Shown: positions 55,159 through 58,100 of the stretch, one piece after another
How the letters are laid out: every line of letters begins with the position of its first letter
Position numbering within the stretch: the stretch's first letter is position 1
Assembly: GCA_905178155.1 (NCBI GenBank)
Contig: CAJINV010000003.1
Location: 1 to 64,000, forward strand
Source of the DNA: Amoebophrya sp. A120
Taxonomy: Eukaryota > Protista > Dinoflagellata
Direction: 5' to 3'
DNA: 64,000 bases
Made by a program: the position numbers and the translations under genes
The notes under the pieces: model-generated
The model's input: the letters and a program-made list of their open reading frames with translations, nothing else
Told to the model about the DNA's origin: nothing
Database searches by the model: none

Positions 55159-58100
55159 ATGCTTTCCAAATTAGCCCGGTCCAGCTCTCGCTCGGTGTCC
55201 CGCAGCAGCACCTCCGCCCGTGCCTTCGCCACTGCGAAGGACATTAAGCATGGGGTCAGCGCGCGCGCCGCCATGCTCGAAGGCTGGGACGTGCTGGCGG
55301 ATGCGGTTGCAGCAACGCTGGGACCGAAGGGACGCAACGTTGTCATTGAGCAGTCTTTTGGGCCACCGAAAGTGACCAAGGATGGGGTAAGATTTTTCCG
55401 ATTTGCAGAAAATAGTATGTCAACCTGCATTTTTATGCTCCCGATATTGTGCATATGTTAATGTTTGAATTTTGGTTGAGGCTGAAAATTTACGCTTTGT
55501 TTCTTCATCTCCAAGAATTGTGAGTGTTTTTTTCCCGCGTCAGGCGCCTGATTACATTAATATTTTCAAGTACAACTACTACGCTGTTTCGCTTGCTACC
55601 CTTTTTCGTAGGTAACTGTCGCGAAGGCCATCGAGCTTTCGGACAAGCTGAAGAACGCGGGCGTCAAGTTAGCGAAGGAAGTGGCATATGCACTGCAAAT
55701 ATGTCTGGATCTGGAAGGTTTCGAACTTGTGATGCGCATTTCATAACGCACACAAATCTGTCATGCATAGGCAGCAAAGGATGCCCATTTCGTGTCACCA
55801 AAATGGGAGACTTCTGATACGGATTAGGCATTGCGGAACCTTCTCGAAACCTGTGACGCTAGGGCTTCCATGCCAGACTTTCTGGATCATGCAAAAACAG
55901 CATGACAAAAATCTGCACTCTTCCAGACCCAGACGTATTTGCATTTGATATGGCAAGCAAGACCAACGACATGGCGGGCGACGGGACGACCACGGCTACG
56001 GTGCTCGGGCGGGCCATTTTCAAGGAGGGCTGCATATCCCAGAGAAAAAAGCTGGCAGGTCATATTTGTAATGCAAAAATAAGCACACGCATTGCATATC
56101 CGAAGCAGCATGCTATGGGGCCGCCCATGACAAGTTTTTCTGTGTATTTTGTTTTGCATCACAAAAAATATGCCCTGCCAGCTTTTTTCTGTGGGATACT
56201 GCAAGGCGGTGGCCGCGGGCATGAATCCGATGGATCTGAAGCGGGGCATCGACCGGGCCGTCAAGGCGGTGCTGGACGAAATTGCGCGCATGGCGAAACC
56301 AATCGACGGACCCGAAGAAATTCGGCAGGTACAACTACGGTGGTCAGCGGCCCTGTTGTGCCGACGAGAGTGATGTGTAGTTTTCTCAACTGAAGAGGAA
56401 ATCGCTGCGATCGGTTTCTGCTAAATAACCGATATTAAGTACATCAAATACTTCTTGTGCATGCTGTAGCTCTTGCGCAATTTTGAGAGCTCTAGACTAT
56501 TTTCGCCGTGGATCCTTTGTTTCCCAACCGCGTTTTTATTTTTCCAGGTCGCCACCATCGCCTCTAATTCGGACCACGAGATCGGCGACCTGATCGCACG
56601 GGCGTTCGAAAAGGTTGGGAAGGACGGAACTATTACGGTAAAAGAGGGAAAAACGCTAAAACACGAACTGGACGTGGTGGACGGGTGCAAGTTTGACCGG
56701 GGATTCATTTCCCCCTTATTAAATGTAAAAATGTCTGGGTCTGGAAGAATGCAACTTGTGATGCTGCGTTTGGATTCCAAAAAAATCTGTATTGCATGAG
56801 TACCAAAGGGAATGCAAGTTTTGCTACGCTGAGAAGGCATTTGTCATGCGGAATAGGCATGAAGAAGCGTTCAAAAAATCTGTATTGCTAGGGTATGGAT
56901 CACAGACATCATGGCTCATGCAAAACGTGCATGACAAGTGTCAGAATCTTCCAGACCCAGACATTTTTACAGTTGATACCCCTACTTCATCACCAACACG
57001 AAAACGCAGAAGGTGGAGATGGAAGATCCCTTGGTGCTGATCTACGAGAAAAAAATCTCCTCCATCCAGAATCTGCTCCCGGTGCTTGAAAAGGTAGGAG
57101 GAAATTTTCTGGGCTTTTTTCTAAAGTCAACGTGAATTTTTGTTCACGCATCTTCTACTCAATGCTTTATTTTTCTGCTTTTTGATTACTTAGTTTGGCC
57201 CGATGAAAAATGAAAAAGAAGCAATTTCTTCATGCGACGAACCATCAATAACTCCGCGTAGTTCATCCGCCGAATGTCCATTCTCGATATAATTCTCCAC
57301 ACCAGGTAGTACAATCGCGCAAGCCGCTATTGATTATTGCGGAAGACATAGACGGCGAGGCGCTGTCTACTCTCGTTCTGAACAAGCTTCGGGGCAGCTT
57401 TAACGTCTGCGCCGTAAAGGCCCCCGGGTTCGGGGACAACCGAAAAGCGCAGCTGTATTCTGAGGAAAAACGTTCCCACCTTGGAGTCAAGATGGAGGGG
57501 ATTTCGCAAGACAAATTATCAACAGTTTTGGGAGTCACGCATGACAAGCTTTGGCTCGTCGCAGGGGAATAAATAATCCGATGTTTAGGTAGTGCGGGCG
57601 TATCAGCATAATTGACCATCCTGTGGTGAGTCTAGCATGACAGACTCCCAAATAGCATTGGAAAGTGCTCCTTGTGGGACTGCGCATGAGAAACATTCGA
57701 GGCTCGCAGACAGGCATGAAGAATGGTGGAGACGTTTTTCCTGAGGATAAGCTGCAGGACTTGGCCATCCTGACCGGCGCCAAGCTGGTCAGCGAAGACG
57801 CTGGGGAAAAGTTGGAAGACCTTACGCTAGAACACCTCGGAAGCTGCAAGTCCGTTTCCATCACAAAAGACGACACTACCATCCTGGACGGTAAGGCTTC
57901 TGTTGTAAGTGATTTCGCCACTTTGTTCGCGCCAAGAACAAATACTTTTATTTACTCCGACACTTGATGTTGATCACTCTTTTCCAGTTGCTTTTCACTC
58001 TGTCATGACAGGTTTATTGTGCTCCAGCACGAAAGTCGTTCTCGTTGTGAATAAAAAATTGAACATCTCACCCCCCCACAAGGTAAAGTAACCAAGTCTG

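What the first reader, a model, noticed from the sequence alone, without database searches (positions are those of the whole stretch)
55682..57754. Non-canonical TIR introns: element plus one 5-bp repeat must be removed precisely from a conserved chaperonin gene without GT-AG signals
Seen: four elements from three TIR families interrupt HSP60 inside conserved motifs. Each is TAT...ATA flanked by a perfect 5-bp repeat (tggca, ctgca, cccct, agctg). Deleting element plus one repeat restores EVASKTND, EGCKAV, ISPYF and AQLQDLA. No register within these four repeats gives GT-AG, GC-AG or AT-AC ends, while the same gene has six ordinary GT-AG introns. The same rule repairs about 20 other sites in the window. 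Known: inverted-repeat, direct-repeat non-canonical introns (introners) are reported from Amoebophrya, and to my knowledge their excision mechanism is unresolved. Inference: a second precise excision pathway runs alongside the spliceosome, either structure-guided RNA processing or DNA-level elimination comparable to ciliate IES removal with pointers.
Basis: partly seen in the sequence, partly recalled or inferred. Interest (0 to 1): 0.9.

Follow-up and report, generated by a model that had tools for sequence, protein, structure and literature searches.

The report
Known hairpin introners in Amoebophrya HSP60
Four transposon-like inserts in the HSP60 chaperonin gene of a marine algal parasite are missing from its messenger RNA although they lack normal intron ends; this intron class is already described for this organism, and the inserts are likely cut out by a hairpin-guided route whose enzyme is still unknown.

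Summary
The window is Amoebophrya sp. A120. Four TAT…ATA elements (164-294 bp, three families, perfect 5-bp repeats) interrupt HSP60, and no register gives GT-AG, GC-AG or AT-AC. Removing each element plus one repeat, and six GT-AG introns, gives a 574-aa protein identical to the public A120 model. A spliced contig of run X5 matches this mRNA at 7 of 7 checkpoints, while a DNA contig keeps element 4 unbroken at single-copy depth. Removal is therefore at the RNA level; DNA elimination is not supported. These are the published A120 introner elements (Farhat 2021: TAT+7 nt+AAA ends, 3-5-nt repeats). This scan has noted similar introns in other genomes. Details my searches did not find in print: family members lie in both orientations within one gene and the public models remove both; at 2 of 2 mismatched repeats the models keep the upstream copy; an 8-mer shared across families recurs at about 31-bp spacing. 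Best mechanism (inferred): cuts positioned by the terminal hairpin, Euglena-like. An altered spliceosome is a close rival. Already known; the catalyst remains open.

The parts
55159..59077 (+). Mitochondrial-type HSP60/Cpn60 gene, 11 exons, 574 aa
   Evidence: Spliced product identical to A120 protein P0002; Pfam PF00118 E 6e-76
55682..55955 (+). E1: repeat TGGCA 55682-55686, element 55687-55950 (264 bp, TAT…ATA), repeat 55951-55955; 269 nt removed
   Evidence: cDNA support only as the summed length with E2 (150 = 71 + 79 nt); fold z -5.24
56030..56203 (+). E2: repeat CTGCA, element 56035-56198 (164 bp), repeat 56199-56203; 169 nt removed
   Evidence: summed cDNA length with E1; multi-copy in DNA run X1 (bin depth 18,925 vs about 26); fold z -8.44
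56712..56983 (+). E3: repeat CCCCT, element 56717-56978 (262 bp, same family as E1), repeat 56979-56983; 267 nt removed
   Evidence: the cDNA gap of 113 nt equals the next exon exactly; fold z -7.23
57451..57754 (+). E4: repeat AGCTG, element 57456-57749 (294 bp), repeat 57750-57754; 299 nt removed
   Evidence: Direct: X5 record 9 joins 57450 to 57750 (record positions 1146/1147). X1 record 8 holds it unbroken in DNA. Family alignment; fold z -4.36
55387..58860 (+). Six ordinary GT-AG introns: 55387-55611, 56329-56547, 57094-57305, 57891-58082, 58308-58432, 58644-58860
   Evidence: all absent from X5 record 9
55728..57642 (.). Internal 8-mer TGTVWTGC in all four elements (55728, 55759, 55900; 56067, 56156; 56757, 56788, 56842, 56881, 56929; 57506, 57539, 57635), often 31-33 bp apart
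29487..33336 (+). Six further elements in the gene of P0021 (29487, 30779, 31590, 31947, 32728, 33054); 29487 and 33054 are one family in opposite orientation; 33054 ends ACA
   Evidence: All six removed as element + 5 nt in the public model; orientation
46015..47434 (+). Three elements in the gene of P0022; 46015-46274 has a mismatched repeat (AGAGA/ATAGA) and the model keeps the upstream letter
49897..50945 (+). Two elements of one family in opposite orientation in the gene of P0001; 50625-50945 has a mismatched repeat (ACGCA/ACACA) and the model keeps the upstream letter

Best explanation
The four inserts are Amoebophrya A120 introner elements that stay in the DNA and are removed from the HSP60 pre-mRNA together with one 5-base repeat, likely by a hairpin-guided cut-and-join route that does not read GT-AG. 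Shown: anatomy, family membership, presence in DNA (strictly bridged for E4) and absence from cDNA. Inferred origin: non-autonomous TIR transposons (MITE-like) inserted by a DDE/integrase-type enzyme that leaves a 5-bp target duplication; the internal TGTVWTGC repeats, spaced about three helical turns apart, would be its double-stranded DNA binding sites. Inferred removal: in the transcript the roughly 28-nt arms pair into a stem closed by UAU/AUA, and the cuts are placed by distance from the stem base. They would fall 0-2 nt before it on the 5' side and 3-5 nt after it on the 3' side, so most of the upstream repeat copy is kept. I commit to a dedicated non-lariat nuclease/ligase route, as proposed for euglenid nonconventional introns, working beside the spliceosome that handles the gene's six GT-AG introns.
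For: cDNA contig X5 record 9: 0 other letters in 8 listed pieces, predicted = observed position at 7 of 7 checkpoints. DNA contig X1 record 8 spans E4 at depth 27.1. 15 of 15 elements in four public A120 gene models are removed as element + 5 nt, and 13 of those 15 have no GT-AG, GC-AG, GA-AG or AT-AC register (12 checked in the confirmed list and 3 in the other list). Repeat sequence is arbitrary at every position, so no junction sequence is conserved. Opposite-orientation family members occur in one gene and both are removed in the models, so any signal lies in the symmetric ends. Families share only TAT-N7-AAA plus pairing. All four fold into terminal stems, with no shuffle folding as well. 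In Euglena, end pairing was shown to be required for noncanonical splicing, with cuts offset N3 and N5-6 from the paired motifs (PMC12501133 passages). The 8-mer occurs 118 times against 13.1 expected, 107 of them inside 8.6 kb of elements, and 22 of 97 same-strand pairs lie 30-34 bp apart against a null mean of 3.7. In gene P0021 it lies only forward in element 29487 and only reverse in 33054, which fits a DNA role better than an RNA role.
Against: Nothing here identifies the catalyst. A stem is expected of any TIR element and is not evidence of RNA function. The test for RNA-level selection on the stem was not significant (G·U 32 vs A·C 22 mismatches, p = 0.11). Orientation symmetry does not exclude a spliceosome, because the arms give the same terminal sequences either way. 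The cut register rests on 2 annotation-derived sites, not on reads, and one of them (50625) has an AT-AC register that an aligner may favour. Farhat's figure legend calls the splice sites variable relative to the hairpin. E1 and E2 are supported in cDNA only by their summed length. The spacing statistic counts related copies as independent. The public models and run X5 may not be independent of each other.
Confidence: 0.5

Rival explanations
1. The elements are the same and removal is at the RNA level, but an altered major spliceosome does it: the hairpin replaces U1/U2AF-type splice-site definition, and U2/U5/U6 catalyse a lariat reaction, perhaps branching at an A of the terminal ATA.
For: A120 keeps nearly all spliceosomal proteins and U2, U4, U5 and U6, but U1 was not detected (PMC7789003 section 10). 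Strain Kv, with canonical introns, has U1 (PMC12005148 passages). Fritillaria processes TIR-derived non-canonical introns with a modified spliceosome (PMC13326754 abstract; PMC11282704 passages). The invariant TAT-N7-AAA ends are present in both orientations.
Against: No junction dinucleotide is conserved in any register except the element's own TA at one end, whereas Fritillaria introns keep prevalent AG-AC/AG-AT ends. A long stem across both splice sites would have to be unwound for standard docking (own knowledge of spliceosome mechanism).
Confidence: 0.42
2. Programmed or stage-specific DNA excision, as for ciliate IESs with pointers, removes the elements before transcription.
For: TIR + direct-repeat anatomy and likely transposase binding sites. 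Contigs drop rare variants, and 185 joints were not shown.
Against: X1 record 8 runs unbroken through E4 at flank depth, and no empty-site joint is among the 15 joints shown. The element-free molecule also lacks GT-AG introns, so it is cDNA. Amoebophrya has no separate somatic nucleus (own knowledge), so excision would be inherited and the elements lost. A search for Amoebophrya + DNA elimination listed 1 paper, on histones, which I did not read.
Confidence: 0.04
3. This HSP60 copy is silent, or is spliced at cryptic GT-AG sites near the elements.
For: In-frame GT-AG or GC-AG pairs exist within 40 nt of each element. Raw RNA run X12 had no read on HSP60 exons.
Against: X5 record 9 matches this locus with 0 other letters and exact lengths. 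All 46 reads of X12 lie on element-family sequence, 41 of them at 90-95% identity, so X12 does not show that this strain's gene was sampled.
Confidence: 0.02

Closest known systems
Introner elements (IEs) among non-canonical introns of Amoebophrya sp. A120 (Farhat et al. 2021, PMC7789003; also Gozashti et al. 2025, PMC12130899)
   Same: Same strain; non-canonical ends; inverted repeat starting TAT + 7 variable nt + AAA; 5-bp direct repeat; repeated families; removed in the public gene models; mechanism declared unresolved.
   Different: No difference in kind. Details not found in the text I could see: both orientations removed within one gene, the upstream repeat copy kept at mismatched sites, and a shared phased internal 8-mer.
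Euglenid nonconventional introns (PMC12501133; review PMC11282704)
   Same: Terminal base-pairing, slidable junctions from direct repeats, coexistence with GT-AG introns in one gene, likely MITE origin, unknown machinery.
   Different: The N3CDG…CHG-N5-6|R code is absent here; the arms are longer (about 28 nt) with a fixed 5-bp repeat; circular products were not tested; distant lineage.
Fritillaria borealis non-canonical introns (PMC13326754; review PMC11282704)
   Same: TIR/TSD transposon-derived introns without GT-AG ends.
   Different: They keep prevalent AG-AC/AG-AT ends and use a U1-bearing spliceosome with duplicated U2AF. The A120 elements have no conserved junction dinucleotide pair, and U1 was not detected.
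Ciliate internal eliminated sequences with pointers (recalled, not read)
   Same: Precise removal of an element plus one short repeat from conserved genes.
   Different: IESs are absent from somatic DNA and need nuclear dimorphism; here E4 is in DNA at single-copy depth and missing from cDNA.

Membership tests
Amoebophrya A120 introner element | Splice ends differ from GT-AG | tested here: met
   0 of 24 registers (4 elements x 6) are GT-AG, GC-AG or AT-AC
Amoebophrya A120 introner element | Inverted repeat pairing the two ends, starting TAT + 7 nt + at least AAA | tested here: met
   8 of 8 ends read TAT-N7-AAA; motif as published
Amoebophrya A120 introner element | 3-5-nt direct repeat at the boundaries | tested here: met
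   4 of 4 perfect 5-bp repeats
Amoebophrya A120 introner element | Repeated in the genome | tested here: met
   Relatives in the window for E1, E3 and E4; raised depth over all four in DNA run X1
Amoebophrya A120 introner element | Removed from the transcript | tested here: met
   X5 record 9: E4 direct, E3 by exact length, E1+E2 by summed length
Non-autonomous TIR DNA transposon (MITE) | TIRs and a fixed-length target duplication | tested here: met
   18 of 31 elements perfect at 5 bp, none at 3, 4, 6, 7 or 8 bp
Non-autonomous TIR DNA transposon (MITE) | A cognate autonomous transposase in the genome | not testable with these tools
   No whole genome is held. Farhat found none in A120; Gozashti 2025 describe TIR-flanked A120 elements with Copia/Gypsy-like ORFs, whose link to these families was not tested
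U2 spliceosomal intron | GT/GC-AG ends | tested here: not met
U2 spliceosomal intron | Lariat intermediate and snRNP dependence | not testable with these tools
   No raw reads of this strain's transcript were obtained
Euglenid nonconventional intron | Base-paired ends | tested here: met
   Predicted terminal stems in 4 of 4; prediction only
Euglenid nonconventional intron | 5'-N3CDG…CHG-N5-6|R code | tested here: not met
   No CDG at positions 4-6 in any register of the four elements, read from the sequences; code
Euglenid nonconventional intron | Released as a non-lariat circle | not testable with these tools
   Needs RNase R or total-RNA reads
Ciliate IES | Absent from the transcribed (somatic) genome | tested here: not met
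   E4 unbroken in a DNA contig at flank depth; one run, stage unknown, rare variants invisible; the DNA contigs overlap E1-E3 junctions by only 24-30 letters, under the tool's bridging limit
Group I/II self-splicing intron | Conserved ribozyme core | tested here: not met
   0 Rfam matches in 21000-64000 at gathering score

The most novel reading that the evidence does not exclude
A120 has a spliceosome-independent, orientation-blind RNA excision system. It recognises the closing UAU/AUA of a transposon's terminal hairpin, cuts at fixed offsets that keep one target-duplication copy, and ligates the exons. Any transposon of this clan then becomes a harmless intron wherever and in whichever direction it lands, a second origin of Euglena-like splicing in alveolates. 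The shared 31-bp-phased 8-mer would be the footprint of the single still-unidentified mobiliser of these families.
Probability: 0.4. Interest if true: 0.8.

Novelty: already known. Interest (0 to 1): 0.32.

Why it matters
The class and even these gene models are public, so the locus is not a discovery. It is a good test case for an open question: how about two thirds of A120 introns (65%, PMC7789003 Table S4) are removed without splice signals. One conserved gene carries four such elements beside six GT-AG introns as internal controls. Mismatched repeats give a cheap genome-wide way to read the hidden cut register. A proven spliceosome-independent route would be a new mRNA-splicing chemistry and would explain how a transposon clan could invade exons freely.

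Tried and rejected
No whole genome is held, so no search for a transposase, an RNA ligase, an HSP60 paralog or more elements was possible. Raw RNA run X12 had 46 reads, none on HSP60 exons; its 'begin' site at 56723 carries library adapter sequence and is not an RNA end. Estuary run X9 gave only short pieces and showed no empty allele. X1 joints of the 'goes back 262/265' kind have unknown letters between and come from many family copies, so they were not taken as circles. Read-level evidence for the cut register at mismatched repeats was not obtained and remains open. G·U versus A·C mismatch test: not significant in any of 15 subsets, best p = 0.075. The frame-restoration test on 10 unconfirmed elements did not discriminate between offsets. 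Rfam gave 0 hits. Pfam named none of P0001, P0021 and P0022. Three long candidate pairs (10919-12138, 12690-13729, 25610-26678) were left out of the 31-element counts as doubtful. Literature searches: orientation, 0 papers, and the 4 'orientation' hits in Farhat's main text were about genes; 'subterminal', 1 unrelated listing. Farhat's supplementary figures S19-S25 (legends only), 56 of 58 A120 rows and files 13-14 of the Gozashti 2025 supplement, and Roy et al. 2023 (Curr Biol, seen only as a reference) were not seen and may already report these details.

Full report
Observation. The four elements are at the stated place: E1 55687-55950, E2 56035-56198, E3 56717-56978 and E4 57456-57749. Each runs TAT…ATA and is flanked by a perfect 5-bp repeat, and none of the 24 equivalent registers has GT-AG, GC-AG or AT-AC ends. 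With the six GT-AG introns also removed, the reading frame gives 574 aa, identical to the public protein P0002 (one search had three intron ends off by one). Keeping any one element stops translation at aa 121, 232, 253 or 351. The four junctions lie in blocks that align without indels in nine other Cpn60 proteins. The protein is Pfam Cpn60_TCP1, E 6e-76.

Organism. Four window proteins match at 100% to models named Amoebophrya sp. A120. No whole genome was held.

RNA versus DNA. Four runs of 14 listed were laid on the gene. Run X5 (RNA by guess) has a 2,502-nt contig at depth 28.6. Its 8 listed pieces have 0 other letters and skip the GT-AG introns, so it is cDNA. It joins 57450 directly to 57750 (E4 plus one repeat). 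The unlisted 113 letters around E3 equal the next exon exactly, and the unlisted 150 letters around E1 and E2 equal 71 + 79. Predicted and observed positions agree at 7 of 7 checkpoints. E1 and E2 are thus supported only as a sum. In run X1, contig 8 (56955-59150, depth 27.1; upstream flank 26) runs unbroken through E4 and the neighbouring GT-AG introns. The contigs at E1-E3 reach only 24-30 letters into the elements, under the tool's bridging limit. X1 may be the sample the window came from, and contigs drop rare variants, so a rare or stage-specific DNA excision is not excluded, only unsupported. X12 (raw RNA, 46 reads, none on exons) and X9 were uninformative.

The rest of the window. I listed 31 elements of 151-465 bp, leaving out three doubtful long pairs. 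A 5-bp repeat is perfect in 18 of 31; no other length from 3 to 8 gives any. The ends are invariant at positions 1-3 (TAT) and 11-13 (AAA), loose at 4-10, and well paired to about position 28. In four public gene models, 15 of 15 elements are removed as element + 5 nt. Two of these 15 happen to offer a canonical register (GT-AG at 31590, AT-AC at 50625). Family members lie in opposite orientations in the same gene: 49897 versus 50625 (251 of 342 columns identical when one is reversed) and 29487 versus 33054. Two of the 15 have a mismatched repeat with a coding effect, and both models keep the upstream letter (position 2 at 46015; position 3 at 50625). If the register is fixed, this places the cut at least three bases into the repeat. 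This is annotation, not reads, and n = 2.

Shared internal motif. TGTVWTGC occurs 118 times in the window against 13.1 expected, with no shuffle above 25; 107 of these are within the 8.6 kb of elements. It is present in families with no other interior similarity. Of 97 same-strand pairs, 22 are 30-34 bp apart (null mean 3.7, maximum 14 in 5,000 draws; related copies are not independent). Some elements carry it only forward and others only reverse within one gene, so it is more likely a double-stranded DNA binding site for the mobilising enzyme than an RNA signal (inference).

Mechanism. All four elements fold into terminal stems (z -4.4 to -8.4), which any TIR element would do. A test for RNA-level selection on the stems was not significant (32 G·U versus 22 A·C, p = 0.11). 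There is no self-splicing ribozyme match. What is shown is removal from RNA, with arbitrary junction sequence and no dependence on orientation in the public models, so the signal must lie in the symmetric ends. I favour cuts measured from the stem by a non-lariat nuclease/ligase route (0.5), by analogy with Euglena, where end pairing was shown to be needed (PMC12501133, passages) and excised introns are reported as non-lariat circles (PMC11282704, passages). An altered spliceosome is close behind (0.42): A120 keeps nearly all components but U1 was not detected (PMC7789003, section 10), strain Kv with canonical introns has U1 (PMC12005148, passages), and tunicates show that a spliceosome can adapt (PMC13326754, abstract). 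DNA elimination is put at 0.04 and a silent or cryptically spliced copy at 0.02.

Known or new. Farhat et al. 2021 (abstract, passages, section 10, supplement text without figures) describe A120 introners starting TAT + 7 nt + AAA with 3-5-nt repeats, 29,850 repeated introns, RNA-seq support and an unresolved mechanism. Gozashti et al. 2025 (passages and 2 of 58 supplement rows) list 58 A120 families and class some as TIR DNA elements. Every defining feature I could test is met, so the finding is already known. The orientation, register and motif details were not found, but figures and Roy et al. 2023 were not seen. Earlier notes of this scan report hairpin-bounded non-canonical introns in other dinoflagellate genomes; I did not test them. 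No notes exist for this genome.

Unexplained. Repeats are perfect in 18 of 22 elements from 21 kb onward but in 0 of 9 between 2.9 and 15.8 kb (Fisher p = 3.5e-5, groups chosen after looking), although arm pairing is similar (505 of 616 versus 200 of 252 positions). Either the upstream insertions are older, or both repeat copies are under selection in working genes.

Verdict. Real, correctly described, removed at the RNA level and already published as a class. Interest 0.32, for a clean test locus and three leads on an open mechanism.

Noticed in passing
window 53583-54058 (+): An HSP10/Cpn10 gene (exon 1 hits PF00166, E 1.5e-08) lies about 1.1 kb upstream of HSP60 on the same strand, so the co-chaperonin pair is linked in tandem.
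   Followed up: partly
window 59696-64000 (+): Copia-type retrotransposon: a gag-like ORF and an overlapping second ORF with SH3 and RVT_2 domains. Copia integrases leave 5-bp duplications (recalled); a link to the introners was not tested.
   Followed up: partly
all 31 elements, e.g. window 55728 and 55759: The 8-mer TGTVWTGC is shared across unrelated families, often 31-33 bp apart, the first copy often 33-34 or 41-45 bp from an end.
   Followed up: partly
window 2919-15810 versus 21241-57749: Direct repeats are perfect in 0 of 9 upstream elements but 18 of 22 downstream, with similar arm pairing. Unexplained.
   Followed up: partly
window 8143-8403: An element with a decayed right end (AGA) and no repeat left (GCCGC vs CAAAT); read by eye, removing element + 5 nt still keeps the frame of the surrounding ORF.
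   Followed up: no
window 33054-33336: The element ends ACA instead of ATA and is still removed exactly in the public model P0021, so the middle base pair of the closing triplet is not essential, at least in the annotation.
   Followed up: partly
window 26483-33452 and about 34658-40690: Two neighbouring paralogous genes with repeated domains; one carries six elements, the other two at different sites, so the insertions postdate the duplication.
   Followed up: no
window 41965-42429: A family copy enlarged to 465 bp by an internal insertion of about 200 bp.
   Followed up: no
window 6775-7085: Three tandem copies of a unit of about 98 bp, unrelated to the TAT elements.
   Followed up: no
run X12 on window 56717-56978: A 2026 RNA run has 46 reads on the E1/E3 family, mostly at 90-95% identity, but none on HSP60 exons; this may be a related strain that shares the family, or a sparse library.
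   Followed up: no
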